A stretch of DNA of 64,000 bases from a virus, in the IMG/VR virus record IMGVR_UViG_3300020176_000010, positions 1 to 64,000 of that record. One strand, given 5' to 3'. The first letter of the stretch is position 1, and each line of letters starts with the position of its first letter. Shown here one piece after another: positions 7,928 through 26,169 of this stretch. Under the pieces are notes generated by a model. The model saw nothing but the letters and a program-made list of their open reading frames with translations. It made no database searches and had not been told where the DNA came from. The translations under genes were made by a program, and so were the position numbers.

Positions 7928-7943
7928 TCAACAAAAGTAATAC

Positions 7944-10900
7944 ATGGCACAGCAAGACTTCTCCGACATCGCATCACTCATTCCCGATGCGCAGCCGAGC
8001 GCCGCAACGAAGCCCGCAGCACAACAGCAGGCATCCGAGTTTTCGGACATCTCCGCTCTGTTGCCAGATGCGGCCCCTGCGCAGTCCGGTGTTGATGGCT
8101 TCGTTGCCCAGTACCGACCACTTGCGGAGCGCGTTGCAAAGCAGGCCGGCGTGGCGCCCGAGGCGATTCTCGGCCAATGGGGTCTTGAGACTGGCTGGGG
8201 CAAGAGCGTAATCCCTGGCACAAACAACCTTGGGAACATCAAGGACTTCAGCGGCGGCGGCGTTCTGGCAACCGACAACATGACCGGCAGCCGAGATGCG
8301 TATCGCAAATACGGCTCTGCAGAGGACTTTGGAGATGATTTTGCAGGCCTGCTTGCTCGCCGCTACAAGTCCGCCATTGGGTCTGGCCAGAATGCGGAGC
8401 GCTACTTCACTGCGCTGAAGACGTCCGGCTATGCGGAGGATCCAGACTATGTGAAGAAGGGCGTCGCGGCGACACAGATGGCTGCCCGCGCCATGGGGTC
8501 AGCAGCGCCTGCGTCTTTACAGGCGAAGAGCGAGTACGGCTCCATCCAGCCGCAGCCCCCGCGGTCAACCTTCGATGCCATCAAGGACATGGGAAGCGCC
8601 TTGTGGCAAGGCGCCAAGTCGACCGCCAGATCTGTTGGCGCAACTGGCAGCGCATACATCGGCAATCTGTCGGATGTTGAGCTGGCAGCAGAGGCGCAGA
8701 AGTCGGATGTTGCGAACAATCCAGCGGCGCTTCAGTCGCTCCAGGGAGAGATCGCTCGCAGGAAGGCCGCAAACCCAAATGCAGGCATTCTAGATGCCGC
8801 CGCCGACGTCATTGGCGCCGCGCTGCAGAACAAAGAGGGCATGGCGCAGATGGTTGCAAACCAGGCGCCAAACTCTGCTGTGGCGCTCGGAGGAGCCTGG
8901 GCTGGCGGCAAGGCCGGCGCTGCCGTTGGATCTGCGTTTGGCCCAGCTGGCACGGTGGTTGGCGGCGTGCTCGGCGGGCTCGCCGGCATGTTCCTCGGCA
9001 ACGCGGCAATGGAGACCGGCGGCAAAGCCATTGAGAAGGCTGAAGGCGGGTTTACCCCACAGGAGCGAACAGAGGCCATCGAGGAGGGCGCCGTAAAGGC
9101 TGGCGTCATTACAGCCGTCGATGCCGCAACATTCAAGCTCGGCGGCGCCATTGCGAGCAGCCTGAACAAGGGGGCAATCCGCGCTGGCGCTCGAGCCGAG
9201 GCGAAGGTGCTTGCAGATGCTGGCATCAATATCGCTGACGGCGCAGAGATCGTTGCTGCGCTGGCAAAGAATCCAGCACTTCGCAAAACAGCCATCGAGG
9301 CAGGAGAGAAGGCTGCAAAGGCGGCAAGCTCCACGGCTTCAAGGATTGGCACGGCCGGCACGCTACTGACCACAGAAACGCTCGGCGAAGGTGTCGGCGA
9401 GTACGGCGGCGAGCTTGCCGCAACCGGTCAGGCTGACCCGTACGATGCAGCACTGGAGGCCATCTCCAGCTTCTCGCAAAGCGCACCGCAGGCCGCCATG
9501 TCCATGGTGCAGTCTGCAAGCAACAGGCTCGACACAAAGGCGATCGTTGCCGCGGCTCCAGAGATGGCACCAGTCATCGAGAAGGCCGCAACTCCAAACT
9601 CACCACTGTCGCGCGCCGCCATGGCTGCCAACACGCCAGAGGTGGTGGCGCAACGCCAGGCCGAGCGGTCCGCGCAAGCTGGCGCTTTGGGCGATGCGTC
9701 TGCAGCAGAAGCGGCTCCAGCGGCGGCGAAAGATGCTGGCGTTCGACTGGCAGAGCTCGAGGCTATCGCCAAGGGCACGCCGTCGCAACAGGTGACAGAC
9801 GAGTCCGGCAATCCGTTGACGATTCCAGGCGAGCCTGGCCGCTTCTTCACCCAGGAAGAAAAGGCGGAGTATGACCAGCTTGTGCAAATGCGCGACGCCA
9901 CCGAAAAGGTGCGCAACGCAGACAAGCCGCAGGTCGACGAGATCTCCACCCGCGTGGAAGAGATCTCTGCATCGATTCGCGAGAATGGCACACTGCAGGC
10001 CATGCGCGACGCAGGCGAGAACACCAACGCCCTGCTGAAAGACTTGGCCATCGCCAAGAGCAAGTCCACGGCCGCCGCGCAACGCGAGCAGGCCCTGGCG
10101 CGTGTCGAGTTTGCACTCGGCATGTCCGACCAGCTGATGCCAGCCCGCCAGCCGCGCGAGGCCGCAGACCCCATCCAGGCTCAGCTGAGCAACCCACAGA
10201 TTTCAGAGGTCGATCGCGAAGAGTTGAGCATCAACTACTTTGCGTCGAAGAATCAGGCCTTGCCAGAGAAGACGCGCCAGCGTGCACTCGAGCGCGCGCA
10301 GGAGATCGTTGGCCGCTATGCGGCGCCTTCGACGGGTCGCGCAGAGGGTGATCTATCGCCGGCCGTGCTTGCTGACATCGCTCCGCAGCCCGGCTCTCCA
10401 GAGGAGGCTCTGCGTCAGGCTGAGCGCTTCGACAGTGGCGCCTACCAGTTCAAGGCCGAAGGCTTCCCCGACGAGGCTGCAGAGCTCGAGCTGCAGGCTG
10501 ATGCTGCGCGCAAGGAGGCTGCAGTTCGCCGCGAAGCGATCGAGCTGGCAAACCGCGTTGAGCAGGTTCCAGCACCCGCCGTGGCCACGCCAGCCGGCCC
10601 GGGCCCTGCGGCGCTACGAAAGCGCAAGGCAACTCTGCGCCAGCTGGTCGACAATGGTCTCGGCCGCGTTGAGCGCCGCAACGATGGCTTCTTCCTGGTG
10701 AGCCAGAACGGACGCCAGGAGTTCAAGCTGGACGGCATGGCCGACGCGCAGCTGGCACGCACGGCGATCGCAGACTCCATCCGCGACGGCGCAGCCAAGG
10801 CCAACACCAACCCCACAGAAGGCCAAAAGCAGGCCGGCAACTACAAGGTCGGCGAGATCAAGTTCGATGGCCTGACGCTGGCCGTCGAGAACCCGCAGGG

Positions 10901-13900
10901 ATCCACCCGCAGCGGCGTCGACCCAAACGGCGAGCGCTGGGAAACCGTGATGCCAGCCAACTATGGCTACATCCGCGGATCTGCCATGGCGGCCGACGGC
11001 GACAAGGTGGACATCTACCTGCCGAACAACGCTCGCTCCGGTTCTCCAGCGTGGATCATCGACCAGTACAACGACGACGGCTCGTTCGACGAGACCAAGA
11101 CCGTGCTGGGCGTGCGCACCGCAGAAGAGGCGACGCGCATCTACGACGCAGGCTACTCGGATGGCTCTGGCCCGCGCCGCCGCGGCGCCGTGACCGAGAT
11201 GTCCATCGAAGACTTCAAGGCCTGGGCCAACTCCGCAGCCGCCAAGAAGCCAGCCGGCGCGCCGCGCGTGATGGATGAGCAGGCGGCGATCGCCGCCAGC
11301 GCCGCAGCCGACGGCCTGCGGGTCACCGGAACCATGCCCGTTCGCATCGATGGCGAGACCAGGAACATCGGCCTCGTGTCCGAGTTGCCTGATGCCGAGT
11401 CGATCGCGCGCGGCGGCCGCGCCACGCGCATCTCCAAGAAGCAGGGCGAGGTGCTGCAGGCAATCGCTCAGGCGTTTGGCAAGAGGGTTCAGTTCTTCTA
11501 CGAGCCAAAGAACGTCGGCGCCGGCGATGGGTTCATCATGAACAACGACCGGTCGACGATCTACCTGAACACCGTGTCAGGCCGCTCGCCGATCGTCGTG
11601 TTCGGCCACGAGCTGATGCACCAGCTCAAGCGCGACAACCCAGAAGCGCACGCAGCCATTGCGGCAGTCGTTGAGCGCCGCGTGAACCGCCAGGCCGCCG
11701 ACAACCTGTACGGCAAGGAGCTTGGCTACTCCGGCGACTCGGTGATGGAGGAGCTTATCTCCGACATCGGCGGTGACCTCATGTCTGACAAGACCTTCTG
11801 GTCCGACGTCATGGATGAGGTGCACGCGCAAAACGACACCAAGGCTGCGCGCAAGATCATCGTCAAGCTGGCTGATTTCCTGATGCGCTCGATCGAAGCG
11901 CTGTCGCGGAACCTGCGCAGCTACGCCGACACCGGCGCAGGCTCGAAGCTGGTCGACGACATGACCGAGATTCGAGCCGCCTTCCGAGGCGCCCTGGCTG
12001 ACTACATCAAGCAGCAAGGCATCAGCAAGCCAGCCATGCAGGCTGAGATCCTGAAGGCCGGACAGGATGCAAAACGGTCTGCCGGCCGCACCACAAAGAG
12101 CGACGTTCAGGGCGACATGTTCCAAGGCGACATGATTGGCCCGGACGAGAAGGTTGCAACAGGACGCGTCATTGACAGCAAGGGAGGCACCGAGGAAGGC
12201 GGGAATGTCGACAGCGCTGGGCGCCAGATTGCCCCAACACGCCAGGCTCTCGAGAACTTCTGGAAGTGGTTTGGCGATAGCGATGCGGTTGACGACAACG
12301 GCCGCCCATCCTTGTACCACCACACCACGCGCAACGACTTCGATAAGTTCGAGGCGAATCGCGTTACAAAGAACAGCGGCACATTCGACGAATGGGAGAC
12401 ATCACGCGCCGCGATCTTCTTCACGGAATCGCTGGAAGATAGCCAGGCCTACGGTAAGGCCGGAAAGGGCTTCGAGCCTGGCGCCAACGTCATGCCGGTG
12501 TACCTGAAGGCTGAGAACATTCTTGACATGACGAGCGGCTATCTGCCCAGCTACGGAAGAGATGCAGCCCGCATCGAAGAGGCCGGACTGAACCCGCGCT
12601 ACATGGATCGGTTCGACTGGTCCAAGTTCGACGACGAAGATGGCAAGGAGATGGTCGATGCACTCAAGCGCGCCGGCTATGACGCGGTCAAATTCTGGGA
12701 TCAGAATCCAGACACGCAAGAAGACTTCCAGGCGCTCGCCGTCTTCTCGCCGGAGCAGATCAAATCAGCTCTCGGCAACCGCGGAACATTTGACAGCGCG
12801 GATGCCAACATCACACGCAGCGCAAGCCGCGATGACGCCCTGACCGTCGAGGCCTACCACTTCAGCCGCCAGCCGCGCAACGTACTCAGCACCGGCGCGT
12901 ACGGCTCGGGCCTGCAGGGCAGCGACCGTGACGCCATCATGGACCACCCAGACAAGCGCCTGCGCAAGCGCCTCTACTTCTATGTGAACAAGGGTACTGG
13001 CGTGCGCCCAGAGTCTGGCGTTGGCGGCATTGCCCATAAGGCCATCCTGTCGAACATCTACGACAGCGACGCTGACGCAAAGCGCCTCAAGCAGGGCCGC
13101 GACAAGCGCGCCTTCGAGAGCGCCGTGCTGGATGCTGGCTATGACGGCTACCTGGCCCGCCTGGACGGCACCCAGCCCGGGCAGGTCATCCTGCTTGGTC
13201 AGAAGACCGTGGAGCCAGAGGTGCTGGGCCAGCGCACGCAGATCCCAGAAGCCAAGGCTGTGCCGCAGCCAGCGCAGCGGAGCATGGATGCTGGCGATCG
13301 GATCATGGCCAACAGCAGCCTGCCGGCTGGCCGCATGGACCTCGGCATGTGGTCTCGCGTGCTGCGCGGGATGATGCCTGACGTGCATGCGCAGCTGGAC
13401 GCGGCAGGCGTGTTTGATGGCGACGGCTCGTTCTACAAGGATGAGTTGGTTGCCCGTGCGCGCAAGTCGCAACCCATCGCCGCCCAGAGTAAGGGGCGCG
13501 AGGCCAAGATCGAGAAGCTGGCGCCCGTGGCGCAGCGCGGCCAGCGCGTGGTTGGCCAGCGCGTCACACTGTCTGCCGATGAGAAGCAGGCCATCGAGTT
13601 CTCCGCAGAAACGACCGGCGTCTCCGCCAAGGAAATCACGCGCGTCGTTCGAGAGCACAAGCTGGCGCATCCAACATCGCAAGGCTGGGCCCCGCTCAAT
13701 TTCGCCAAGACAAAGATCGAGAAGGGAAAGATCGCCTACGAATATGACAAGGTGCCATACAGCTTCAATGCTGACGCGGATGGCCGCGCGCTGAAGCCTG
13801 GCACTACGGAGTACGACCGCCGTGTTGGCGCCGTTGCGCGTCGCATGACCGACGAGGTGCGTCGTGTGCACCAGCGCGCAGCAGATGGCGACAAGAATGC

Positions 13901-16900
13901 AGAGAACATCCTGGCCCAGGCCGGGTGGTACAAGTCGATGCGCGCCCGCCTTCGCCATGAGTTCGGCGGCCTGGGCGACCTGTTCGCAGACCTGCTTGGC
14001 GCTACCAGCCCCAACACTCCAGTGCGCGACAACTGGACCAACGCCGTGGACTCTCTGCGCCGCGCCACGCGTGGCGACTTCGACCAGCTGATCCCTGCAT
14101 GGGAGGCGTGGGCGGATGACATCGATGCGCGCGAGACCGAGCTGCGAGCCTGGTTCAATGGCCAAATGGCAGACGGCAAGAGCAAGAAGGCCATCAAGGA
14201 ATCCGCTGAGTACAAGGAAAAGCTGGACAGCCTGATCGCTGCGCGCGAGCTGCCTGACGCCCTGCTGCCTACCAAGGAGACCGGCAAGAAGTACGGCTTC
14301 AACGGCCGCAATGTGGCGCGCGCCATGGTCGATCTGTGGCGTGTCGTGCGCGATGCGGACCCCGACGTCAAGCGCGGCGGCACGGCGCCAAAGGCAGTGA
14401 ACTTCAGCGGGAACCTGATCGGCTTCCGTGAGCGCGCAACCATCGACGTGTGGGCGGCCCGCATGCTGCAACGCCTGTCTGGCGGATTGCGCGTGCCGAG
14501 CATGGCTGAGGTCGGCGTGAGTGGCGAGATGCGCGCAGATGGCGCCACCACACTGCAGTTCGGGTTTGGCCAGGACGTCTTCTCGGATGCGGTGAAGCGC
14601 ATCCGCAAGGATCCAGAACTCAAGACCAACGACACGCTGGCCAAGATCAACGATGACGACCTGCAGGCTGTGGTCTGGTTCGTTGAGAAGGAGATCTGGA
14701 CAGCCAACAACTGGACCAGCGCAGCTGGCGAGGGCGGGTCGTTCGAGCTCGAGGCCAGCCTGTCTGGCTCCGCGGAACAGGAGCGCATCAAAGAGCTGCG
14801 CCGCATCATCGACTCCAGCAAGTCCAAGCCGGACGCAAAGGCCAAGGCCCGCGCGGAGCTGGCCAAGCTGGAGCGCACCGTGGACCGCTTTGTGGGCGGC
14901 CTGTCTACGCAGATGTCGATGGACACCCAGGGCATCGACTTTGTGCCACAGGACTCCGACATGGCTCGCCTGTCCAACGAGGTGACCACCGCGATCTACG
15001 AAGACGATAGCGCCACCGCCGTGCTGGCATCGAAGGCCCTGGCCACCGAGGGCCGGTACGGAGGCATCGAGCGCTCACTCGACCTCGAGGTTGTTGCGCG
15101 TGAAGGCTACAAGCCGGCGGCGCTGTGGAAGAAGATGCTCGAGATCGCCGATCGCGCCAAACAGGACAGCACGTTCCTGTCCCGCGTGCTGCGCGACGAC
15201 GAGGAGGTTGATATGCTGCGCCACCGCCCTGGCGTGGAGATCTATTTCCGTGAGGCCGCATCGCGCGAAAAGCTCGAGCGGGTGCTTGGAGAGTTGGCCA
15301 ACGAGGGGGTCGAGTTCCTGACTGTCATCGTTGATGGTCGCCGCATGTCTGACGCCGTCAAGGGCCAGATGCCACCGGCCGTCGGTGTGCGCATGCAGTA
15401 CGTTCCAGAGTTCGATCAGCGGTATGGTTTCGACGACCTTAGCTCCTTGGATGATGCTGCTCTTGCAGCTAAAATCCAGGACAAGGCCGCGGAAATGACC
15501 GCACTTGCAGACCGCGTCGCAAAGGCGGTCGGGAATGTCTCATTTGCCAGCCAGTTCTGGTACGAGACTGATGTGGCGTTTGGCCACGAATACCAGGAGA
15601 AAATTGATGCCATCACAACTGGAAGTGCTGAAGGATCAGCTGCGCAGGCTGGAGGCCGAGAATGGGCCGGACGGACCGCTCGCGCGGGGCTTGAAAGCGC
15701 GAATCGCCAAGCTCGAGAAACCGCACGCACCCAACCCGGTGGAGATGTACTCGATCGGAACCAGGCCGGCACCAATGACGCAGGACGGCCAGGCGCTACC
15801 GGAAGCGCCAACTCGGGATCAGTTCAAGACGCAGGCGGAGTTCGAAGAAGCGCTCGGCGGATGGCGCTCGATGGTGGGCAGGATCAGAGGATTGAAGGCC
15901 GGGAAGAAGACGGAAGCCTGACCGGCCTGCCGCGCGACTTCAACATCGCCGGCCAGCAGATCCGCGCAAGCCACTGGGCGCCCGCCGAGGCTGTCGCGCG
16001 CAAGTACATGGCTGATGCTGGGCTGGAGTACACACCACCAGCCCGCTACGCCAAGGTCGATCCAGAGCGCGCAAAGCGCATCGCGGCCGAGTACGACAAG
16101 CTCAAGCACGACCCACAAAATCCGCAGGTCAAGGCGGCCTATGAAGCCCTAGCCCGCGAGACGATCGCACAGTACAGCGCCGTCATCGATAGCGGCCTGC
16201 AGGTCGAGTTCATCGACTTCGCCAAGCAGGGTGACCCATACGCAGCAAGCCCGCGCCTCATGACGGAGGATGTGCGCAACAACAACCACATGTGGCTGTT
16301 CAGCACACGCGACGGGTTTGGCTCTGACGCCGAGTTTGACCCGATCGACAACCCGCTGCTCGCCGAGACGGAGTTCACCATCAGTGGCCAGAAGGCCTTG
16401 GTGAATGACTTGTTCCGCGTGGTGCACGACTACTTTGGCCACGTCAAGGAGGGCGTCGGCTTCCGCGCAGACGGCGAAGAGAACACCTGGCGCGCGCACA
16501 GCTCGATGTTCTCACCACTGGCGCAGCGCGCACTCACCACCGAGACGCGGGGGCAGAATTCCGCAGTGAACTTTTCCTCGAAACCTCTGTTCCAAGTGAT
16601 TGGTGAACACAGGGCGAGGATGCTTTATGACGAAGGATATGCGCGGAGGGTTGCGCGAGACGAAGCCGGTGACGTACGCCGGCGTGACGTACAGGACGTC
16701 AAGGGATTGTCCGGTGTATCCGGTCTGGAACGGGATGATGTATCGGTGCTTCAACCCCAAGGCTCCGAGCTTCAAGCACTACGGCGCCCGGGGAATAACG
16801 GTGGATCCACTGCTGCAGACTCTGCAGGGGTTCCTGGACGTGATGGGGCTTCCGCCGACACCGGCACACCAGATCGACAGGATCAACAACGACGGCAACT

Positions 16901-17303
16901 ACGAGCCGGGCAATCTGCGCTGGGCAACGCCAACGGAGAACCTTCGCAACAAGCGAACCTCTCGGATGTTGACGCACAACGGCAGGACGCAGGCGATGTC
17001 GGCATGGGCCGAGGAGCTAGGGCTGTCGACGCAGGCACTCAAGGCTCGGCTCGACAGGTACAACTGGACAGTCGATCAGGCACTCGAGACGCCTCTGGGG
17101 ACGGGCGGGAGCCGCTTTGGAAAACGATCACCGTAGGTGAGCACAACAGAACCGCCAGCTCCGGCGACACGCACTACGCCGACCAGAAGGTTGGCCTGCT
17201 GCCACAGTGGGTCAGCGAAGAAGGTCGTCGCGATTCAACGCCGGCCGAATACAATCAGCGCATCGAGGCGATGAAAGATCTGATCGCCTGCCTCCGCAAC
17301 TAA
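7944..17303 (+). CDS. Giant polyvalent virion protein 1 (glucosaminidase, InPase-like, HExxH metallopeptidase, ART-PolyVal, further unnamed domains)
   Basis: 3119 aa; GQWGLETGWG..NNLGNIK..GYAEDPDY (GH73-like, ~8090-8500); ENPQGSTRSGVD..YGYI..DGDKVDIY (~10800-11250); HELMH (11607-11621); FWKWFGDS..YHHT..EQIKSALGNRGTFD (~12250-12830). Confidence 0.85.
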   Translation: MAQQDFSDIASLIPDAQPSAATKPAAQQQASEFSDISALLPDAAPAQSGVDGFVAQYRPLAERVAKQAGVAPEAILGQWGLETGWGKSVIPGTNNLGNIKDFSGGGVLATDNMTGSRDAYRKYGSAEDFGDDFAGLLARRYKSAIGSGQNAERYFTALKTSGYAEDPDYVKKGVAATQMAARAMGSAAPASLQAKSEYGSIQPQPPRSTFDAIKDMGSALWQGAKSTARSVGATGSAYIGNLSDVELAAEAQKSDVANNPAALQSLQGEIARRKAANPNAGILDAAADVIGAALQNKEGMAQMVANQAPNSAVALGGAWAGGKAGAAVGSAFGPAGTVVGGVLGGLAGMFLGNAAMETGGKAIEKAEGGFTPQERTEAIEEGAVKAGVITAVDAATFKLGGAIASSLNKGAIRAGARAEAKVLADAGINIADGAEIVAALAKNPALRKTAIEAGEKAAKAASSTASRIGTAGTLLTTETLGEGVGEYGGELAATGQADPYDAALEAISSFSQSAPQAAMSMVQSASNRLDTKAIVAAAPEMAPVIEKAATPNSPLSRAAMAANTPEVVAQRQAERSAQAGALGDASAAEAAPAAAKDAGVRLAELEAIAKGTPSQQVTDESGNPLTIPGEPGRFFTQEEKAEYDQLVQMRDATEKVRNADKPQVDEISTRVEEISASIRENGTLQAMRDAGENTNALLKDLAIAKSKSTAAAQREQALARVEFALGMSDQLMPARQPREAADPIQAQLSNPQISEVDREELSINYFASKNQALPEKTRQRALERAQEIVGRYAAPSTGRAEGDLSPAVLADIAPQPGSPEEALRQAERFDSGAYQFKAEGFPDEAAELELQADAARKEAAVRREAIELANRVEQVPAPAVATPAGPGPAALRKRKATLRQLVDNGLGRVERRNDGFFLVSQNGRQEFKLDGMADAQLARTAIADSIRDGAAKANTNPTEGQKQAGNYKVGEIKFDGLTLAVENPQGSTRSGVDPNGERWETVMPANYGYIRGSAMAADGDKVDIYLPNNARSGSPAWIIDQYNDDGSFDETKTVLGVRTAEEATRIYDAGYSDGSGPRRRGAVTEMSIEDFKAWANSAAAKKPAGAPRVMDEQAAIAASAAADGLRVTGTMPVRIDGETRNIGLVSELPDAESIARGGRATRISKKQGEVLQAIAQAFGKRVQFFYEPKNVGAGDGFIMNNDRSTIYLNTVSGRSPIVVFGHELMHQLKRDNPEAHAAIAAVVERRVNRQAADNLYGKELGYSGDSVMEELISDIGGDLMSDKTFWSDVMDEVHAQNDTKAARKIIVKLADFLMRSIEALSRNLRSYADTGAGSKLVDDMTEIRAAFRGALADYIKQQGISKPAMQAEILKAGQDAKRSAGRTTKSDVQGDMFQGDMIGPDEKVATGRVIDSKGGTEEGGNVDSAGRQIAPTRQALENFWKWFGDSDAVDDNGRPSLYHHTTRNDFDKFEANRVTKNSGTFDEWETSRAAIFFTESLEDSQAYGKAGKGFEPGANVMPVYLKAENILDMTSGYLPSYGRDAARIEEAGLNPRYMDRFDWSKFDDEDGKEMVDALKRAGYDAVKFWDQNPDTQEDFQALAVFSPEQIKSALGNRGTFDSADANITRSASRDDALTVEAYHFSRQPRNVLSTGAYGSGLQGSDRDAIMDHPDKRLRKRLYFYVNKGTGVRPESGVGGIAHKAILSNIYDSDADAKRLKQGRDKRAFESAVLDAGYDGYLARLDGTQPGQVILLGQKTVEPEVLGQRTQIPEAKAVPQPAQRSMDAGDRIMANSSLPAGRMDLGMWSRVLRGMMPDVHAQLDAAGVFDGDGSFYKDELVARARKSQPIAAQSKGREAKIEKLAPVAQRGQRVVGQRVTLSADEKQAIEFSAETTGVSAKEITRVVREHKLAHPTSQGWAPLNFAKTKIEKGKIAYEYDKVPYSFNADADGRALKPGTTEYDRRVGAVARRMTDEVRRVHQRAADGDKNAENILAQAGWYKSMRARLRHEFGGLGDLFADLLGATSPNTPVRDNWTNAVDSLRRATRGDFDQLIPAWEAWADDIDARETELRAWFNGQMADGKSKKAIKESAEYKEKLDSLIAARELPDALLPTKETGKKYGFNGRNVARAMVDLWRVVRDADPDVKRGGTAPKAVNFSGNLIGFRERATIDVWAARMLQRLSGGLRVPSMAEVGVSGEMRADGATTLQFGFGQDVFSDAVKRIRKDPELKTNDTLAKINDDDLQAVVWFVEKEIWTANNWTSAAGEGGSFELEASLSGSAEQERIKELRRIIDSSKSKPDAKAKARAELAKLERTVDRFVGGLSTQMSMDTQGIDFVPQDSDMARLSNEVTTAIYEDDSATAVLASKALATEGRYGGIERSLDLEVVAREGYKPAALWKKMLEIADRAKQDSTFLSRVLRDDEEVDMLRHRPGVEIYFREAASREKLERVLGELANEGVEFLTVIVDGRRMSDAVKGQMPPAVGVRMQYVPEFDQRYGFDDLSSLDDAALAAKIQDKAAEMTALADRVAKAVGNVSFASQFWYETDVAFGHEYQEKIDAITTGSAEGSAAQAGGREWAGRTARAGLESANRQARETARTQPGGDVLDRNQAGTNDAGRPGATGSANSGSVQDAGGVRRSARRMALDGGQDQRIEGREEDGSLTGLPRDFNIAGQQIRASHWAPAEAVARKYMADAGLEYTPPARYAKVDPERAKRIAAEYDKLKHDPQNPQVKAAYEALARETIAQYSAVIDSGLQVEFIDFAKQGDPYAASPRLMTEDVRNNNHMWLFSTRDGFGSDAEFDPIDNPLLAETEFTISGQKALVNDLFRVVHDYFGHVKEGVGFRADGEENTWRAHSSMFSPLAQRALTTETRGQNSAVNFSSKPLFQVIGEHRARMLYDEGYARRVARDEAGDVRRRDVQDVKGLSGVSGLERDDVSVLQPQGSELQALRRPGNNGGSTAADSAGVPGRDGASADTGTPDRQDQQRRQLRAGQSALGNANGEPSQQANLSDVDAQRQDAGDVGMGRGARAVDAGTQGSARQVQLDSRSGTRDASGDGREPLWKTITVGEHNRTASSGDTHYADQKVGLLPQWVSEEGRRDSTPAEYNQRIEAMKDLIACLRN
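15447..15475 (+). promoter_or_regulatory. Sigma70-like promoter internal to giant gene
   Basis: TTGGAT-N17-TAAAAT about 130 nt upstream of nested ORF 15607. Confidence 0.55.
15607..15921 (+). CDS. Nested overprinted protein (+1 frame within giant gene), 104 aa
   Basis: AGGAGA RBS 6 nt before ATG; protein-like MPSQLEVLKDQLRRLEAENG...; host-frame translation over this span is low-complexity G/A/R-rich. Confidence 0.65.
   Translation: MPSQLEVLKDQLRRLEAENGPDGPLARGLKARIAKLEKPHAPNPVEMYSIGTRPAPMTQDGQALPEAPTRDQFKTQAEFEEALGGWRSMVGRIRGLKAGKKTEA
16627..17136 (+). CDS. HNH homing endonuclease overprinted in +1 frame within giant gene
   Basis: GAGGA RBS; W..MMYRC.NP....FKHYGARGITV...IDRINNDGNYEPGNLRWAT...N.RNKR motif. 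Confidence 0.85.
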   Translation: MTKDMRGGLRETKPVTYAGVTYRTSRDCPVYPVWNGMMYRCFNPKAPSFKHYGARGITVDPLLQTLQGFLDVMGLPPTPAHQIDRINNDGNYEPGNLRWATPTENLRNKRTSRMLTHNGRTQAMSAWAEELGLSTQALKARLDRYNWTVDQALETPLGTGGSRFGKRSP

Positions 17304-17315
17304 GGACCGAAGTAC

Positions 17316-20300
17316 ATGGCCCAGATTACGAACTGCCTGAAGCTCATCTCCCGCATGCCTGAGAGCGACCAGGACGCACTGGTTTCTCGACTTGACGAGC
17401 TGCAGGCTCTCGGCGTTCCTGCGCAGCGCGCACAGGTGCAGGCGGCCATCGACCTGATGTCGCGCCTGGAGCGCGAGGCAAACCCGCAGGGTATTCAACG
17501 CAGCGCAGCGCGCGACGTCACCGAGACGCCGGAGTTCCGCAGCTGGTTTGGCGATAGCAAGGTGGTGGATGCCGATGGCAAGCCGCTTGTCGTGTACCAC
17601 GCAACCACATCGAACATTAAAAAGTTCTCGACGAAGAAGTCAGCAGGCGGCTTCTACTTCACGCCAAACGCCGAAGATGCATACCCAAGCAAGCGCGGCG
17701 AAATGACGTCCGAGCGCGGTCTCAATGTGATGCCAGCCTACCTGGCCATCAACAGCCCACTGCGGACCAGCGACCCAGCCGATTGGCACAGGCTTGACGC
17801 AGACCGACGCTCCAGCATCGAGGATCGCGGATTTGACGGCGTCATTGTTGAAAACGAAGACGGGTCTGTGCGCGAGTACATCGCCTTCGAGCCCAGCCAG
17901 ATCAAGTCCGCCATCGGAAACCGGGGCACCTTCGACCCGGCCGACCCCGACATCACCCGCAGCGCATCCCGCCTGCCCGCCGGTGTTGAAATCATCGAGG
18001 TCGATGATGGCTTCGACGCCATGCAAGACGGCAAGCGCATCGGCCGCCTGCGCGACAACCTGCCACGCGGCGCCGCTGAGCGGCTGGACGAAAACGCCAG
18101 CGTCGACATCGTCAAGGTCGAGAACGAGTTCAAGGGCCAAGGTGTTGGCGCGGCCCTGTACGACGCCTTCTACGAGAAGCACGGCGGCCGCATCGCGCCA
18201 TCCGGCAAGACCTCGCCAGAGGCCTGGGCCCTGTGGAAGCGCAAGTTCCCTCAGAAGGTGCAGGAGTTCGTGCAGGCCGAAGCTCAGCGCATCCGCGACG
18301 GCGCAGACCCATTCATGGTCATGCGCAACATCACCGACAAGGACGTAGCGCGCGACGTGGCCATTGCGGCGGGCGACAACGTTATCCGCAGCGTGGCGCG
18401 GAATGTGGTCGATAGCGCCGAGTTCAAGCGCTGGTTCGGCGACAGTAAGGTGGCGGATGCCGAGGGTAAGCCGCTGGTGGTGTATCACGGCAGCCGATAC
18501 AACGCCGACATCAAGAGGTTCAGCGCAGCAAAGTCCGAGCAATCGGCGGCGGAGCGCGGAATCTACTTTACCGACAGCGCAGATCATGCAGATCAATACG
18601 CGAGCCAGTGGGGAGACGCCAGCCCAGAAGACGGCGGCTCAATTTACCCCGTCTATCTGAAGATTGAAAACCCCTACGTTTCCAATGCGTGGGAGTGGAA
18701 CATGGGCACAGACATCACGCCAGCCCAAGCTCGCAAACGAGGGCATGATGGCTACGTGATTCAAAACCACGAGGGCGGCACAACCTACATCGCCTTCCGC
18801 CCCGAGCAGATCAAGAGCGCCATCGGCAACCGCGGCACGTTCGACCCATCCGACACCGACATCACGCGCAGCGCCGCGCGCCCCGAATTCTTCAGCCAGC
18901 TGCAGCGCTCCATCGAACAAGTGCCAGACCGCCTGGCCACCATGTCTGCGCCACAGTGGAAGCTCTGGCTTGACGCCAATGCAGCCAAGCTGGGCGTAAA
19001 GAAGGACGAGATTGAGTGGTCAACAATCAAGGATTACTTGACACTTCGTGGCAAGGACAAGGTCACGCGCGACGAGTTGGCGGCATACCTGTCTGACAGC
19101 GGTGTGCGGGTGCGGGAGGTTGTTCTTGGTGGCGGCGGCACTGAAAAGGTAACCTTGGTTCGAGACTCAACCAGGCAGGACGCATGGGGAGAAGTCGTCG
19201 TCTATCGAAGCTCCGACGGGGCTTTCGTTGTCGAGAATGGAATTGGTGGGCAGAGCTGGTCGGTTCAGGATGCCGATTCATACGACAGCGACTACTCAGA
19301 AGACGATGGAAGCTACGCAGGAAGCTTCAGCTCACGCGAAGCTGTAGAGTCTTTCATCAATGGCCAGACGCAGGCCGCCGACCCATATTACTCCGGCGTT
19401 GGATCGAACCCAGCAACCAAGTATGGCGCCTATACCGTGCCCGGCGGCCCGCTCTCGCGCGATACTGAGATCCTGACCCGTGATGGCTGGATGCGGATGG
19501 ATGAGGTTCAGATCGGCGACGAGGTCATGACGCGACGAGATGAAGACGGCGGCCTGGAGTGGCAGCCAGTTGAAGCGCTGCCGACCGTTTACGCAGAAAA
19601 GCTATACCACTTCAAGAATCAATCGATCAACATGCGCGTCACGCCATGCCACAAGATGGTAGTCAAGCGTCGGCGCAGATCAACGGGCGAGATCGTTCGC
19701 GTCACGGCAGAGCAGCTTTGGGGCATGTCGGAGATGGTAGCCCCACTCACGGGGTCATGGGGCGGCGGTGAATTCTCTGACCTGTTTGATCAAGATCCTG
19801 GAGATGTCGCTGAGCTGCTTGGGTGGTTTATTGCAGAAGGCCACTACAAGACGGAGGCGGATGGCAAGAAGTCAACCATCGGTATTGCTCAGTGCCGATC
19901 AGCAAACAGCGACAAGTGCGCCCGTATCGAGTCCCTATTGGGGAGGATGGGTATCGCCTGGAATTACTCTGGCGGTCAGTATTGGCTGGGTGTCAAGAAG
20001 ATGTCTGCCGATCTGGTGCAGCTTCTGCATGCACAAGGGAAATCTGCTGAAAAGTATGTGCCTGGCTTCATGTTCAATGCGCCAGCCAGCGTCATTCAGC
20101 GCATGCTTGATGGCCTCTTGCTTGGCGATGGCTGCCTTGTAAAGCAGAATGGCCGAAAGCCTCGGTGGACATACCACACGAAATCCAAGCAGCTGGCAGA
20201 TGATGTCCAGGTGCTTGCTCTTCTCGTTGGTAAACGTGGATCCGTGTCTCGGCGCAAGACGGGTCTTTACACGGTCACCATCAATGATAAGCAGTGGGCG

Positions 20301-20879
20301 AGCATCGATGATGCGAAGCACGCGGTCGTCGATTACAACGACATCGCGTACTGCGTCACTGTGAAGAATCACTCGATCTACGTTCGTACCAATGGCGTCG
20401 CAGCGTTCACTGGAAACTCCAACTACCGCGAGGTGCTGATCACGTTGCCTCCGATTGGCCGGGTGAGATACACCGAGGAAAATGTCGTCGCCATCGATGA
20501 CGCGGACGACCCAAATCGTTCCCGCTACTTCTGGCGCTTCAAGGTTCCAGGCAATGAGCTACAGATCTCCAAGCAGGTTTACCGCACCCAGGAGGAGGCG
20601 AAGGCCTACATCCTGAGCGAGAAGCAGCCAGAGCCTCCGGCCGACAAGAACTACCGCTCCAGCCACTGGGATGCGCTGAATGTTATCGCGCATATCAGGG
20701 TGGATGATAGGGTGGACTCCGATGGAAAAAAAGTGCTCTTTGTGAATGAGCTGCAAAGTGATTTTGGCCAGGACTATCGCAAGGCAAAAGAAGCAATCGA
20801 GAGCGCTGTTGACACCGATTTTATGGGCATCGTCGAGCGCATGAAAAAAGCAGGCGTACTGGAGGTTGTTTGTGATTAA
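17316..20879 (+). CDS. Polyvalent virion protein 2 (ART-PolyVal, GNAT, ART-PolyVal, N-terminal part of an LPD-type domain; contains intein)
   Basis: 1187 aa; AAGGA RBS; two F..WFGDSKV.D..GKPLVVYH...QIKSAIGNRGTFD units; FKGQGVGAALY; YTVPGG/SNYREVLITLP...SSHW...ELQSD. Confidence 0.85.
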   Translation: MAQITNCLKLISRMPESDQDALVSRLDELQALGVPAQRAQVQAAIDLMSRLEREANPQGIQRSAARDVTETPEFRSWFGDSKVVDADGKPLVVYHATTSNIKKFSTKKSAGGFYFTPNAEDAYPSKRGEMTSERGLNVMPAYLAINSPLRTSDPADWHRLDADRRSSIEDRGFDGVIVENEDGSVREYIAFEPSQIKSAIGNRGTFDPADPDITRSASRLPAGVEIIEVDDGFDAMQDGKRIGRLRDNLPRGAAERLDENASVDIVKVENEFKGQGVGAALYDAFYEKHGGRIAPSGKTSPEAWALWKRKFPQKVQEFVQAEAQRIRDGADPFMVMRNITDKDVARDVAIAAGDNVIRSVARNVVDSAEFKRWFGDSKVADAEGKPLVVYHGSRYNADIKRFSAAKSEQSAAERGIYFTDSADHADQYASQWGDASPEDGGSIYPVYLKIENPYVSNAWEWNMGTDITPAQARKRGHDGYVIQNHEGGTTYIAFRPEQIKSAIGNRGTFDPSDTDITRSAARPEFFSQLQRSIEQVPDRLATMSAPQWKLWLDANAAKLGVKKDEIEWSTIKDYLTLRGKDKVTRDELAAYLSDSGVRVREVVLGGGGTEKVTLVRDSTRQDAWGEVVVYRSSDGAFVVENGIGGQSWSVQDADSYDSDYSEDDGSYAGSFSSREAVESFINGQTQAADPYYSGVGSNPATKYGAYTVPGGPLSRDTEILTRDGWMRMDEVQIGDEVMTRRDEDGGLEWQPVEALPTVYAEKLYHFKNQSINMRVTPCHKMVVKRRRRSTGEIVRVTAEQLWGMSEMVAPLTGSWGGGEFSDLFDQDPGDVAELLGWFIAEGHYKTEADGKKSTIGIAQCRSANSDKCARIESLLGRMGIAWNYSGGQYWLGVKKMSADLVQLLHAQGKSAEKYVPGFMFNAPASVIQRMLDGLLLGDGCLVKQNGRKPRWTYHTKSKQLADDVQVLALLVGKRGSVSRRKTGLYTVTINDKQWASIDDAKHAVVDYNDIAYCVTVKNHSIYVRTNGVAAFTGNSNYREVLITLPPIGRVRYTEENVVAIDDADDPNRSRYFWRFKVPGNELQISKQVYRTQEEAKAYILSEKQPEPPADKNYRSSHWDALNVIAHIRVDDRVDSDGKKVLFVNELQSDFGQDYRKAKEAIESAVDTDFMGIVERMKKAGVLEVVCD
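19449..20417 (+). mobile_element. Intein (class 3-like, Pro1) with LAGLIDADG endonuclease, 323 aa
   Basis: Block A PLSRDTEILTRDGW; block B VTPCHKM; LLGWFIAEG and MLDGLLLGDG; block F AYCVTV; ends FTGN|S; removal restores YTVPGGSNYRE. Confidence 0.85.
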
Positions 20880-21507
20880 GACCTTCTATGTTTACAGGCA
20901 CTACCACACCGACAGCGGACTCCCATTTTATGTTGGCAAGGGGACCAGACTATCCAAGAGTGACGGCTATCGCAGGGCTTTTGATGTGCATCGAAGGAAG
21001 GCCTCATGGAAAAGCGCGTCCGCAAAGCACGGCCTAGTGGTAGAGGTTGTGGCCGAGTTCTTTGCTGAGGCGGATGCTCTTGCGTTTGAGGCCGATTTGA
21101 TAGCTATGCATGGTCGCCGGGATCTTTGTGCTGGCACGCTCATAAATCACACCGATGGGGGTGAGGGGTGCTCTGGGTTTAAGCACAAGCCGGAGTCAAT
21201 CGAGCGCATTCGGATGGCAAGCCAAGGGCGCCGCCTTGGCGATGCGTCACGCCGCAGAATCTCCGATGCGCTAACCGGTAGTCGGCACCCTGGCTACGGC
21301 CGCCGGCAGTCGGCAGAAACGTCCGAGCGAAAAAGGGTGGCGATGCTAGGTAAAAACTTAAATGGTCGCTCTGTGCTGGATCGCTCAACAGGCGCTGTGT
21401 ACAAATCAGTTCTTGCGGCATCAAGAGCAACAGGAATACCGGCACGAACACTCGCCAACTATCTGCATGGCGAGAGGAAGAATAGAACAGAAATGGAGTT
21501 CGCATAA
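20872..21507 (+). CDS. GIY-YIG-like homing endonuclease with NUMOD3-type repeats
   Basis: GGAGG RBS plus GTG overlapping upstream stop; FYVYRH...PFYVGKG...E..LI...INHTDGGEG; H.PESIERI, S.ETSERK. Confidence 0.8.
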   Translation: MIKTFYVYRHYHTDSGLPFYVGKGTRLSKSDGYRRAFDVHRRKASWKSASAKHGLVVEVVAEFFAEADALAFEADLIAMHGRRDLCAGTLINHTDGGEGCSGFKHKPESIERIRMASQGRRLGDASRRRISDALTGSRHPGYGRRQSAETSERKRVAMLGKNLNGRSVLDRSTGAVYKSVLAASRATGIPARTLANYLHGERKNRTEMEFA

Positions 21508-24500
21508 TGGCCTGCCGATACACCTACCAGGGCAAGACCTACGAGGCCCACGAATTCGACGACGTGCTGCGCGCTATGGCGCCAATGGATGCGGAGAAGT
21601 TCATGCCTACCGTGAAGAGCATTCCATCAGCGCCACTGATCTCCGACACCAAGGCCTGGGCCGGCCTCGCCCTGAAGCGCGCCATCATGATGGCCGTGGA
21701 GGAGGGGCACGACAAGATCGCTTTGATCACCGGGCAGCAGGCCGCGGATCTCTATGACCTGAGCAAGCAGATCAGCAGGGTCGAGTTCTCGGACGCCAGC
21801 AGCGGAGGCGTCAGTGATGCCAACCTTGGCGCGCCAGATGGATCTGGGAATCTGTCGGCATTCGACCTTGACGGCAAGCGTGTCATCGACACCTATGTCA
21901 GCGCCGACAAGATCGAGGACTATGTTGGCAAGGAGGTTGCGCGCAAACTACTCGAATCCGAGCCAAGGGCCGTCCGCGCCGCCGGAGTTGGCCTGCGTCG
22001 CCGCTCCCTTGATGGCCTAGACCTCAAGGTCGGTGGCGAAGGCATGCGCGCCTTCTACGACCAGATCATCCCCCAGGTGGCGCGCGACGTGCTGAAGAGG
22101 CTGGGCGGCGGGCAACTGGCCACAGCGAAAATCACAACCGACAAGAATGGCTGGCACATCACGCCACCCAGCCAGACGGCCAGCGGAAAGTGGATGGTCA
22201 AGAGCAGCGACTACAACTCCGTCGGCCTCAAGTTCGACACAGAGGCCGAGGCGCGCGCCGCCCTGGCCGAGAAGCAGGAAACGAGCGAGCAGGTTTCGCT
22301 CGACATCACGGACTCCATGCGCGAGAAGGTGGCCTCCGGCGTGCCGCTGTTCAGCCGCCGCCGTGGCTGGGATGCATTCCCTGACGCGATCATCGCGACA
22401 CCGCCGTCCACACAATCAAGCGACCCATCGTACGCAGCAGCCAAGGGCGGCGACATGAAGGCCGCGCTCGAGCTCGTGGACCGCGTGATGCCCGATGACA
22501 TCGAGCAGCGCGTGCGCGCAACCATTGGTGATGCCAAGCCTATCGTTGCCGCCGTGCACGCCGAAGAGGCCGCCGGCCGCAACAAGATCCCCTTGGCCAC
22601 CGCCTTCGTGCTCGGAGAGCGCATGGGTCTGCAGGTCGACGAGAAGCTGGTTCAGGCATCACGCGCCAAGCGCACCGGCTCCGACGGCATGGCCCGCCTC
22701 GGCGTGCAGCCAGAGTTTGCCGGCGAAGTGGAGCGCGACGCAGACTACCTGCTGGTCGATGACACCCTGGCCCAGGGCGGCACGCTGGCGCAGCTCAAGA
22801 CCCACATCGAGGACAACGGCGGCCGCGTCGTGGGGGTATTCGCGCTGAGCGGCAAGCAATACTCTGCTAAGATTTCCCTTGATAATGCAACACTTAATGA
22901 TGTCAGGGCGAAGTATGGATCGATCGAAGACTGGTGGAAAGGCGAGCTCGGCTACGGCTTCGAAGGCCTCACACAGTCCGAGGCCCGCTACATGCTCAAC
23001 TCCGGGCTTTCGCCTGAAGCCCTGCGAGATCGAGTCGCTGCAGCACGACAAGCGGCTGGCGCTGGAGATGGCGCGCAGCGTTCGGAAAGCGTTGGCGATC
23101 AAGAAGTAGTACGCAGCATGCCGCGCGTTCCTGGTTTGAACGCCGGGCCTGTCGAGAGCACGACAGGAGACTATGGCCGCGAGTACACGCCGCAGCAGTT
23201 GGCCATGTTCAAGAACACCGGCCGCACCACGCAGAAGCCGTCCCTCGTTGAGCGCCTAAAAGAGGCTCGCAAAGACTTGGGCAAGAAGATGGCCCAAGGC
23301 ATCGTCGATCAATTCCGCCCGCTGCGCGATCTCGGCGGCAACGCCTACACGCTGGCCCGCTTGTCAAAGGGCGCGGCCGGCGCGTTCGAGGCGCTGCTTG
23401 GCCACGGCAAACTGAAGATCGTCGATGGAGCCTACGACGCAGACACCAGCGGCGGCTTCATTGACACCGTCGGCAAACCCCTTGGCCGCGAGATCGAAGA
23501 CTTCATGTGGTGGGTAGCCGCCAACCGCGCGGACAGCCTTTCTCTGCAGGACCGCGAGAACCTCTTCACTGACGACGACATTGCCGCGGGCAAATCGCTG
23601 GCAGACGGAGACCTCGAGTTCGACTACCTCCTGCAGAGCGGCGCAACAACGCGCGACCGCAAGGCCGCCTACGAGGACTCGCTGAAGAAGTTCAACGCGT
23701 TTGGCAAGAATGTGCTGGACATCGCCGAGGAGAGCGGACTGATCGATGGAGAGAGCCGCAAGCTGTGGGAGAGTGAGTTCTACGTGCCGTTCTACCGCGT
23801 GAGCGAAGAGGATGGCTCATTCATTGGCGCAAAGATCAAGGGCGGCCTGGCTCGCCAGCGCGCGTTCCACGAGCTCAAAGGCGGAAGCCAGAAGCTGAAC
23901 AGCGACCTGCTGGCGAACACCATGCGCAACTGGGCGCACCTGATCGACGCGTCTGCGAAGAACCGCGCAGCCAAGGCGACGCTTGAGTCTGCGCAGAATG
24001 TCGGCATCGCGCTTGAGGCTGACGCTGAGACCGTACGCCAGCTCGGAAAGTCGATGGGCGGCAAGGGTGGCACCGTTTGGTTCATGGACGGCGGCCAGCA
24101 GCGCCACTTCCTGGTTGGCGACCCATACGTGCTCGAGGCAATCAATAGCCTGGAGTACGCCGGCCTGCGCGGCCCACTGATGGACGCCCTTTCCACAATG
24201 AAGCACTGGCTGACCGTCGGCGTCACGGCGTCGCCAGCGTTCAAGATCCGCAACTTGATCCGCGACTCGATTCAGGCCATCAGCTTGAGCGGCCTGAGCT
24301 ACAACCCGGTGACCAACCTGGTTGAGGGCTACAAGGCCACAGATCGAGCAAGCCAGGACTACGTCTCTACGCTGGCATCTGGCGGCCTGATTCGCTTTGG
24401 CTCCATGCTGGAAGACAGCGCATCAGAGCGCGTACGGAGGCTTGTGAAGAAGGGCGTCGATGGCAACACCATCCTGGACAGCGAGAGCAAGGTGCAGGCC

Positions 24501-25712: not shown

Positions 25713-25915
25713 CAGCACGGGGCTGTGATGGCCCCGTATCTGATTGCCTGGAGGATGGATCCAACGATCCATCCGGCAGCCCCGAGGCAAACCATCCAGA
25801 CGACAGCCGTGCCAAACAAGTCCTTGATGCGAGCCTTTGTGGCACCGCCAAGGATTGCAAAAAGACCAAAGAAAGCGAGTAGTGCGAGCATTGCCGATTT
25901 TATAGAGGTCGGCAA
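25706..25915 (-). CDS. Small two-TM membrane protein
   Basis: 69 aa with two hydrophobic stretches, convergent with giant gene. Confidence 0.5.
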   Translation of the reverse strand: MPTSIKSAMLALLAFFGLFAILGGATKARIKDLFGTAVVWMVCLGAAGWIVGSILQAIRYGAITAPCCQ

Positions 25916-26169
25916 TGCTTGAGTCTCTTTTCTGCGCTAAATCGTGCAGAACTCGTGCAGCTGTCGCTTTTTTAAGACGTATGCCTCATGAGCCTTTTCT
26001 GGTGCCTCGTAGAAGCCTGCGTGGTGCTGCTTGCCATTCAGGTTCACCTTTGCTCCCCATGCGTTTCGCTGCGCAGACCAGTAGACGCCAAGCAGGCCCG
26101 ATGCCTTGTTGTGCGACCACGCCTTCCGCGTGTTCTGCGCATTCTGGGACTTTTGACATCCTCTCCGGC

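What the first reader, a model, noticed from the sequence alone, without database searches (positions are those of the whole stretch)
15447..15921. Nested gene with its own promoter and RBS inside the giant effector gene: candidate built-in immunity protein
Seen: TTGGAT-N17-TAAAAT, then AGGAGA-N6-ATG and a 104-aa helical ORF in the +1 frame, lying in an interdomain linker of the host protein. It follows an enzyme-like domain (GWY...TSP...PK..NF..N...TIDVW...QA..W). Inference: an independently expressed inhibitor or antitoxin of a neighbouring toxic domain, genetically inseparable from it when domains are shuffled.
Basis: partly seen in the sequence, partly recalled or inferred. Interest (0 to 1): 0.72.

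Follow-up and report, generated by a model that had tools for sequence, protein, structure and literature searches.

The report
Hidden partner gene inside giant phage gene
A 104-codon gene with its own ribosome-binding site is written one base out of step inside the floppy linker of a giant phage virion-protein gene, is kept in the same place in many unrelated phages, and probably makes a small helical protein that clamps onto the enzyme-like domain encoded right after it.

Summary
ATG 15607 to TGA 15921 is a 104-codon ORF, +1 to the 3119-codon polyvalent virion-protein gene (7944-17303), with AGGAGA 6 nt upstream.

In this window alone the open frame is not beyond chance, and the proposed promoter is not supported.

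Comparative data show a real gene:
- A profile of its C-terminal motif hits 34 of 61 places that carry the domain encoded directly downstream.
- All 34 hits are +1 to that domain and lie in short frames. The host frame is open across all 34.
- 13 of 14 lineages have a Shine-Dalgarno plus start codon, against 2.9 expected by chance.
- Substitutions follow the +1 frame's third codon positions.
- The +1 peptide is far better conserved than the host-frame peptide, which is a polar, low-complexity linker.

Co-folding places the conserved helix on that domain's most conserved face: score 0.83, best control 0.01.

Best reading: an independently translated partner of the downstream domain, possibly an inhibitor. 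There are no expression or binding data. The scan has noted other nested genes in polyvalent-gene linkers on other DNA, but not this family. My searches found no paper describing it.

The parts
7944..17303 (+). Host gene: 3119-codon polyvalent virion protein (frame 0)
   Evidence: ORF list and translation. Pfam: Glucosaminidase at residues 59-174, InPase at 960-1095, ART-PolyVal at 1450-1616.
15447..15475 (+).
   Evidence: Present in the sequence. Not reported by the promoter scan: 0 sites in 7944-17303, 1.5 expected in shuffles.
15595..15600 (+). Shine-Dalgarno AGGAGA, 6 nt before the nested start codon
   Evidence: An SD plus start codon in the +1 frame is found in 13 of 14 lineages, against 2.9 expected.
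15607..15921 (+). Nested gene, +1 frame, 104 aa (P0002), stop codon included
   Evidence: Four close homologues called as separate 102-104 aa proteins. The family profile finds 298 cluster representatives at E<=1e-3.
15808..15885 (+). Conserved C-terminal motif of the nested protein (P68 to I93): P-x-R-x-x-F/Y...E-F/Y-x-E-A-x-x-x-W/F/Y-x-x-R-x-G-R
   Evidence: This stretch forms the predicted interface.
15606..15899 (+). Host-frame linker overprinted by the nested gene (polar, low complexity)
   Evidence: Composition 90% G/A/S/R/D/Q/T/P/E/N. The host-frame peptide is poorly conserved: BLOSUM62 0.72 per residue against 2.15 for the +1 frame. Its openness is selected: P 0.000-0.06 in 11 of 17 loci.
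15900..15935 (+). Host-frame motif REEDGSLTGLPR, where frame-0 conservation resumes. It overlaps the last 7 codons of the nested gene.
   Evidence: Frame translations of all loci.
15921..16569 (+). Downstream domain (frame 0), first part: uncharacterised, enzyme-like by conservation
   Evidence: 60 viral loci found with it. Alignment A3 has 39 invariant columns including the HDYFGH motif. AF2 pLDDT 94 on the L013 orthologue. No fold match.
17151..17303 (+). Downstream domain, last part, after the HNH insert
   Evidence: Comparison with Octadecabacter phage BD1 gp16 and 'tail' tblastn hits.

Best explanation
ORF 15607-15921 is a genuine small-protein gene that is translated on its own. It is written in the +1 frame over the disordered linker of a phage polyvalent virion-protein gene.

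Ribosomes start at the internal AGGAGA-N6-ATG. They make a 104-aa protein with an N-terminal helical hairpin, a disordered middle and a conserved C-terminal amphipathic helix with a basic tail. They stop exactly where the next conserved domain of the giant protein begins. Ribosomes reading the giant gene pass straight through the same DNA and produce only a polar spacer.

The small protein is the trans-acting partner of the domain encoded immediately downstream. Its conserved helix is predicted to lie across that domain's most conserved surface.

Inference, not shown: the protein acts as a removable cap on a catalytic face, either an inhibitor or 'safety catch', or else an assembly chaperone or cofactor. 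Writing it into the linker lets a separate polypeptide be encoded next to its target without breaking the single-chain giant protein.

My odds, step by step: about 0.9 that it is a real, independently initiated gene; about 0.6 that it binds the downstream domain; about 0.3 that it specifically inhibits it. The confidence given is for the first two together.
For: 1. Conserved place and frame.
- tblastn of the protein hits 14 of 68 fetched loci, all +1 to the downstream domain and ending at its start. The host-frame peptide hits only 2.
- A motif profile run over six-frame fragments hits 34 of the 61 places that carry the domain. Every hit lies in a fragment of 43-145 codons and none lies in the giant frame.
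- All 34 are +1, and the host frame is open across all 34. These loci range from 0.38 to 0.69 G+C.

2. Start signals. 13 of 14 lineages have a start codon with an SD 5-10 nt upstream, against 2.9 expected from the same frame elsewhere in the host genes.

3. Selection in the +1 frame.
- BLOSUM62 per residue over distant pairs is 2.15 (+1), 0.72 (host) and 0.37 (+2). Column entropy by +1 codon position is 0.89, 0.94 and 1.36.
- Diversity peaks at host position 1 inside the motif and switches to host position 3 at the domain start.
- A natural variant contig differs at 23 sites in the overlap: 10 synonymous in +1 against 5 in the host frame. In the domain, 14 of 16 differences are synonymous in the host frame.

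4. The host frame is kept open. With the +1 protein held fixed, recodings leave the host frame open in 0.000-0.06 of trials in 11 of 17 loci.

5. It is a family. There are 298 cluster representatives at E<=1e-3, mostly 43-180 aa. They share an N-terminal D-P motif and the C-terminal helix.

6. Link to the downstream domain.
- All 8 true matches to a DNA pattern for the motif are nested and directly followed by the domain.
- 0 of 8 loci with the upstream segment have the motif.

7. Predicted binding, on the natural L013 pair.
- ipSAE was 0.83, 0.71 and 0.88 in three runs; the best of 3 controls scored 0.01. That mark was reached by 116 of 157 solved complexes and 2 of 215 mismatched pairs. Runs agree in at least 67% of contacts, and partner pLDDT is at least 63.
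- The interface is the conserved motif (residues 56-63, 73, 75-94).
- On the domain it touches the invariant residues Y117, T139, G142, G144, N172, R176, F191, E196, Q222, N235 and Q248.
- Interface columns are more conserved than the rest, 0.75 against 0.61.
Against: - There is no transcript, ribosome or peptide evidence. Contigs in an RNA library cover parts of the region, but this does not show transcription.
- 27 of 61 places have the domain without a profile hit, including phage BD1. The domain can therefore exist without the small gene. Six of those places keep a degenerate open +1 frame.
- The motif is not exclusive to this setting. It occurs four times in tandem inside a tape-measure protein and twice in several other proteins. 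It may be a generic helical module, and the docking may be less specific than the score suggests.
- The co-fold is a model run with my own alignments, so the calibration holds only roughly.
- The window and L012/L013 share 86-87% identity in the domain but only 37-42% over the nested protein. The motif itself is 20 of 26 identical.
- In L054 the nested ORF ends 419 nt before the domain.
- The interface differences between loci with and without the gene are confounded by phylogeny.
- The motif regex and profile were derived from the family itself, which is an ascertainment bias.
Confidence: 0.55

Rival explanations
1. The gene is real, but the protein works independently of the neighbouring domain, for example as a virion-assembly or scaffold-like factor, or as a host-directed peptide. 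It sits in this linker only because linkers tolerate overprinting.
For: - The motif also occurs in tandem in a tape-measure protein and in multi-copy small proteins.
- There is a weak PHROG match of one relative to a head scaffolding family, E 0.0035.
- 27 of 61 places have the domain without the gene.
- The protein has a basic C-terminal tail.
Against: - Position is constant: the motif lies 77-98 nt before the domain start in 30 of 31 regex hits.
- All 8 true pattern matches are followed by the domain.
- The co-fold score is 0.83 against 0.01 for controls, with the conserved motif at the interface.
Confidence: 0.25
2. The +1 frame is reached by programmed ribosomal frameshifting from the giant frame. 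This would give a shortened giant protein with an alternative helical C-terminus, rather than a free small protein.
For: - In the window an A-run (GAG AAA ATT) follows the SD-like AGGAG, a layout that can stimulate +1 shifts (the mechanism is from my own knowledge of prfB).
- L047 lacks an SD.
Against: - No shared slippery site was seen.
- In short forms a +1 stop lies only 12-23 codons before the motif, and a Met with an SD sits between the two.
- 13 of 14 lineages have an SD plus start codon at initiation spacing.
- Gene callers found hundreds of free-standing small homologues.
Confidence: 0.07
3. One reading: an immunity protein or antitoxin for the enzyme-like domain upstream of the ORF.
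For: Only position in this window: the ORF lies downstream of that domain.
Against: - That domain ends about 302 codons earlier.
- The segment directly upstream occurs in 8 loci with no motif and no downstream domain.
- Upstream sequence differs among motif-bearing loci: the 'up' query hits only L012 and L013 among them, at 28-31% identity.
Confidence: 0.03
4. The frame is not translated. The +1 conservation is a by-product of constraints on the host peptide or on RNA or DNA structure.
For: - The +1 frame's openness is only mildly unlikely once the host peptide is given: P 0.44-0.92 in the 8 loci with G+C of 0.55-0.69.
- There are no expression data.
Against: - The host peptide is the less conserved frame.
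- Third positions of the +1 frame are the most variable.
- SD and start codon are conserved.
- The +1 frame is open for 88-90 codons in loci of 0.38-0.48 G+C, where P is 0.003-0.056.
- No Rfam match in 7000-26000.
Confidence: 0.03

Closest known systems
Embedded same-strand phage genes: lambda Rz1 inside Rz (+1 frame); phiX174 B inside A and E inside D (own knowledge, not looked up here)
   Same: A small gene lies wholly inside a larger one on the same strand in a shifted frame. It has its own start signals, and both frames are kept open.
   Different: - ORF1 has no lipoprotein signal or spanin features.
- The host is a multi-domain virion protein, and the overlap is confined to a disordered linker.
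- The nested frame carries the normal codon pattern, while the host frame looks like the overprinted one.
- The predicted partner is the next domain of the host protein itself.
Hidden out-of-frame HNH insertions ('ShiLan domain') in actinophage DNA methylase genes (PMC11855218; search listing and start of abstract seen)
   Same: An out-of-frame ORF lies inside a host gene whose frame stays free of stops and is read through.
   Different: - ORF1 has no nuclease or any other family match.
- It is kept at one site in 34 of 61 places rather than scattered.
- It has a conserved partner domain.
- The same host gene does carry a true case of the ShiLan kind at 16600-17136.
Immunity proteins of polymorphic toxins and type II antitoxins (own knowledge; the general comparison with polyvalent proteins is in PMC5512222, passages seen)
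   Same: A small protein is encoded right beside the domain it is predicted to bind. It covers a conserved, probably catalytic, surface.
   Different: - It is encoded upstream of and overlapping the effector gene, not as a following cistron.
- Toxicity of the domain and its neutralisation are untested.
- The small gene is absent from 27 of 61 places that carry the domain.
Polyvalent proteins of phages and conjugative elements (Iyer et al. 2017, PMC5512222)
   Same: The host gene is one: lysozyme-like, InPase and ART-PolyVal domains in a single chain.
   Different: A term search of the paper's main text found no occurrence of 'overlapping' or 'frameshift'. The paper therefore does not describe nested genes in linkers. 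The downstream domain matches no Pfam model.

Membership tests
Embedded (nested) phage genes of the Rz/Rz1 kind | Small ORF wholly inside a larger same-strand gene in another frame, with both frames open | tested here: met
   34 of 34 relatives.
Embedded (nested) phage genes of the Rz/Rz1 kind | Own ribosome-binding site and start codon | tested here: met
   AGGAGA-N6-ATG; 13 of 14 lineages against 2.9 expected.
Embedded (nested) phage genes of the Rz/Rz1 kind | Nested product is translated and functional | not testable with these tools
   Only indirect support: purifying selection in the +1 frame.
Spanin (Rz1-type o-spanin) | Lipoprotein signal peptide with a lipobox Cys | tested here: not met
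   P0002 has no Cys and no hydrophobic N-terminus.
ShiLan-type hidden homing-endonuclease insertion | Nested ORF encodes an HNH or other homing endonuclease | tested here: not met
   No Pfam, PHROG or NCBIfam match for P0002.
ShiLan-type hidden homing-endonuclease insertion | Sporadic presence or absence among close homologues of the host gene | tested here: not met
   Conserved at one site in 34 of 61 places across 0.38-0.69 G+C.
Toxin-immunity or toxin-antitoxin pair | The small protein binds the neighbouring domain | tested here: inconclusive
   The co-fold supports binding, 0.83 against 0.01 for controls. This is a model, not a measurement.
Toxin-immunity or toxin-antitoxin pair | The domain is toxic or enzymatic and is neutralised by the small protein | not testable with these tools
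   The domain has invariant His, Asp and Glu residues but no fold or family match.
Programmed-frameshift product (G/GT-like) | Conserved slippery site at the frame junction | tested here: inconclusive
   No shared heptamer was seen by eye in the sequences upstream of the starts. No formal search was made.
Polyvalent protein (host gene) | Several unrelated effector or enzymatic domains in one phage-encoded chain | tested here: met
   Pfam Glucosaminidase, InPase and ART-PolyVal.

The most novel reading that the evidence does not exclude
Giant phage polyvalent-protein genes hide the genes for their own regulators in their linkers. Here the nested gene would make an active-site plug that is synthesised from the same mRNA just ahead of its target domain. 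The plug would load onto the domain as it emerges and keep it silent in the producing cell and in the capsid. It would be shed when the protein is ejected into the next host. That would be a toxin-immunity-like module whose two genes share the same DNA and so cannot be separated by recombination. It would also be a general reason why polyvalent-gene linkers repeatedly carry hidden frames.
Probability: 0.25. Interest if true: 0.85.

Novelty: new variant of a known kind. Interest (0 to 1): 0.72.

Why it matters
- Standard gene callers and GenBank records miss this gene. In MW202675.1 it lies unannotated inside a 'hypothetical protein'.
- If the small protein does cap the next domain, it gives a way into the function of a widespread, uncharacterised, high-confidence but unmatched fold in phage virion effectors.
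- It would show how a single-chain multi-enzyme protein can carry a separate regulator without being split.
- The case is also a clean example for studying dual coding. The 'old-looking' frame is the nested one, and the host frame is only required to stay open.
- The scan has now met nested genes in polyvalent-gene linkers on several unrelated genomes, which suggests a general rule worth a systematic survey.

Tried and rejected
- Group I intron or other RNA family: no Rfam match in 7000-26000 at E<=1.
- Family names for the nested protein: none in Pfam, PHROGs or NCBIfam. Relatives gave only weak PHROG hits: phrog_649 at E 0.0067-0.23, and a head-scaffold family at E 0.0035. Their Pfam hits were all below cut-off. 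The protein atlas gave a best score of 0.76, an unnamed cluster.
- Function of the downstream domain: no PDB sequence match (best E 0.12). Foldseek best E was 0.17. VIA-align wide gave a best Z of 2.7, to minigluzincin zymogens, which is not meaningful. The atlas returned only unnamed viral clusters.
- DNA of the closest relatives (P0004-7): the metagenome scan returned only an unrelated coiled-coil hit, L003. A viral scan with the single protein found none. The alignment was too variable for a scan.
- GenBank phages: P0002 gave no tblastn match. A short form gave one weak hit, which turned out to be a true nested copy.
- RNA evidence: a metatranscriptome run holds contigs over 15379-15628 and 15806-16020, but contigs cannot show transcription, starts or strand.
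- In-frame versions of the motif: none in any six-frame fragment longer than 145 codons.
- Another +1 ORF in the giant gene (10240-10701) translates to Arg/Ser/Leu-rich junk and was dismissed.
- Literature: six searches and a term search in PMC5512222 found no description of nested genes in polyvalent-protein linkers.
Full report
**What is there.** The window is the first 64 kb of an 81-kb viral record rated 99% complete.
- Positions 7944-17303 are one 3119-codon ORF. Its Pfam matches are Glucosaminidase, InPase and ART-PolyVal, so it is a phage polyvalent virion protein.
- The ORF is +1 to the giant frame and encodes 104 aa (P0002).

**Is it more than chance in this window?** Mostly not, on the ORF alone.
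- The genome is about 61% G+C and holds 99 ORFs of at least 150 aa in the window.
- Given the host peptide, 57% of synonymous recodings leave the +1 frame open.
- The hexamer pair does not meet the scan's criteria: 0 sites in the gene, against 1.5 expected in shuffles.
- Codon-position G+C is what stands out. The host's third-position G+C is about 0.8 along most of the gene but 0.48 in 15594-15893. There the +1 frame shows the coding-like pattern of 0.65, 0.48 and 0.74.
- The host-frame peptide over this stretch is 90% small, polar or charged. The +1 protein has ordinary composition.
- A different +1 ORF in the same gene (10240-10701) translates to junk. The contrast is therefore real.

**Relatives.**
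- The protein has four close homologues (75-89% identity) that gene callers reported as separate 102-104 aa proteins.
- I fetched 60 viral loci with the domain encoded just downstream (15921-16598) and 8 with the segment just upstream.
- tblastn with the nested protein hit 14 of these 68 loci. Every hit was +1 to the downstream domain and ended at its start. The host-frame peptide hit only 2 loci.
- A regular expression for the motif matched 31 of 61 places (60 loci plus the window). All matches were in the +1 frame, and 30 of the 31 lay 77-98 nt before the domain.
- A profile of the motif was run over every stop-to-stop fragment in six frames of all loci and the whole window. It gave 42 hits in 42 sources: 34 of the 61 places with the domain, plus 8 loci fetched by DNA pattern. 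Every hit lay in a fragment of 43-145 codons, never in a giant frame.
- The host frame is open across all 34, and all 34 are +1.
- Many loci are near-duplicates. There are 24 distinct motif segments and roughly 14 lineages.

**Start signals.** In 13 of 14 lineages a start codon in the +1 frame upstream of the motif has GGAG, GAGG or AGGA 5-10 nt before it. From the same frame elsewhere in the host genes, 2.9 would be expected.
- Examples are AAGGAGACGTTA-ATG in L017 and GGAGGACAAAACAG-GTG in the L049 group.
- In short forms a +1 stop lies only 12-23 codons before the motif, which leaves little room for anything but initiation.

**Which frame is selected?**
- Over distant pairs the +1 peptide scores 2.15 BLOSUM62 units per residue, the host frame 0.72 and the third frame 0.37. 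Column entropy is highest at +1 third positions: 1.36 against 0.89 and 0.94.
- In two groups of related loci, diversity in the motif peaks at host position 1. It switches to host position 3 at the domain start.
- A natural variant contig from a wastewater run spans the whole ORF without gaps.
  - It differs at 23 sites in the overlap: 10 synonymous in the +1 frame, 5 in the host frame.
  - It differs at 16 sites in the domain, of which 14 are synonymous in the host frame.
- With the +1 protein held fixed, the host frame stays open in only 0.000-0.06 of recodings in 11 of 17 loci. The giant frame is therefore kept open by selection.
- Both frames are used. Only the +1 frame constrains the amino-acid sequence.

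**The family.**
- A profile search of 1.84 billion representatives found 298 proteins at E<=1e-3 and 19 at E<=1e-10. Most are 43-180 aa.
- Long forms share an N-terminal D-P motif and the C-terminal helix. Short forms keep only the helix.
- No library names the family.
- The motif also occurs four times in tandem in a tape-measure protein and twice in several other proteins.
- Alone, the window's protein models as a helical hairpin (4-19, 24-37), a disordered middle and a long helix (76-101), with mean pLDDT 64.

**Which domain does it go with?** The downstream one.
- A DNA pattern for the motif found 24 loci in the viral collection. Eight are true members, and all eight are nested and directly followed by the downstream domain. 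Six of the eight are contigs already fetched.
- None of the 8 loci with the upstream segment has the motif or the downstream domain.
- The downstream domain has 39 invariant columns, including the HDYFGH motif. It models at pLDDT 94.
- It matches no solved structure or named family.

**Binding.** I co-folded the natural pair from L013, using alignments A3 and A4.
- The score was 0.83 (three runs: 0.83, 0.71, 0.88) against a best control of 0.01. That mark was reached by 116 of 157 solved complexes and 2 of 215 mismatched pairs.
- The runs agree in at least 67% of contacts, and partner pLDDT is at least 63. The counts hold only roughly because I supplied my own alignments.
- The partner's interface is the conserved motif.
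- The domain's interface includes invariant residues Y117, T139, G142, G144, N172, R176, F191, E196, Q222, N235 and Q248.
- Interface columns are more conserved than the rest, 0.75 against 0.61. Positions 110-122 and 136-137 are stricter in loci that carry the gene, but this is confounded by relatedness.
- This supports binding. It does not show it.

**Against, and open.**
- There are no expression data.
- 27 of 61 places have the domain without a profile hit, six of them with a degenerate open frame. Phage BD1 also lacks the motif.
- The window and L012/L013 share 86-87% identity in the domain but 37-42% in the nested protein. The motif itself is 20 of 26 identical.
- L054 has 419 nt between the nested ORF and the domain.
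- Whether the protein inhibits, chaperones or activates is inference only.

**Known or new?** Nested same-strand genes are classical in phages (Rz1 in Rz, phiX174; own knowledge). Read-through of out-of-frame HNH genes was published in 2025 (PMC11855218; listing and start of abstract seen).
- The polyvalent-protein paper has no occurrence of 'overlapping' or 'frameshift' in its main text (term search).
- Five further searches found nothing on nested genes in such linkers.
- This scan has noted nested small genes in polyvalent-gene linkers on other genomes. Look-ups by sequence found none of this family.
- In GenBank phages the only copy found is unannotated, inside a hypothetical protein of MW202675.1.
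- I class it as a new variant of a known kind.

Noticed in passing
window 16570-17150 (ORF 16600-17136, +): A second +1 nested ORF in the same giant gene is an HNH homing endonuclease (phrog_3377, E 1.4e-40). It is inserted inside the downstream domain between '...NSAVNF' and 'GEHNRTAS...'. It is absent from BD1 gp16 and from all 68 fetched loci. The host frame reads through it. An earlier agent already reported it (e1-6125577).
   Followed up: partly
window 17316-20879 (+): The next gene (1187 aa) has two ART-PolyVal stretches and an intein-like insert, with Hint_2 (weak) plus LAGLIDADG_3 matches.
   Followed up: no
L054:982-1399: In this relative about 419 nt of host-frame coding sequence lie between the nested ORF's stop and the downstream domain. 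In the others the two abut. This may be an inserted small domain.
   Followed up: no
P0113 (1045 aa, tape-measure protein), residues about 780-900: Four tandem copies of the same P-A-R-x-x-F...Y-x-E-A-L-x-x-W motif lie inside a PhageMin_Tail tape-measure protein. Two copies occur in P0010, P0013, P0041 and P0093. The helix may be an older, reusable module.
   Followed up: partly
window 15900-15935 and the same place in relatives: A host-frame motif R-E-x-D-G-S-L-x-G-L-P-R marks the start of the downstream domain in loci that carry the nested gene or its degenerate form. Loci without the nested gene keep only G-L-P. It could be a processing or boundary signal.
   Followed up: no
L096 (MW202675.1) 1453-1614: A GenBank metagenomic phage genome carries the nested gene (motif profile E 3e-15) unannotated inside hypothetical protein UOF80349.1.
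   Followed up: yes
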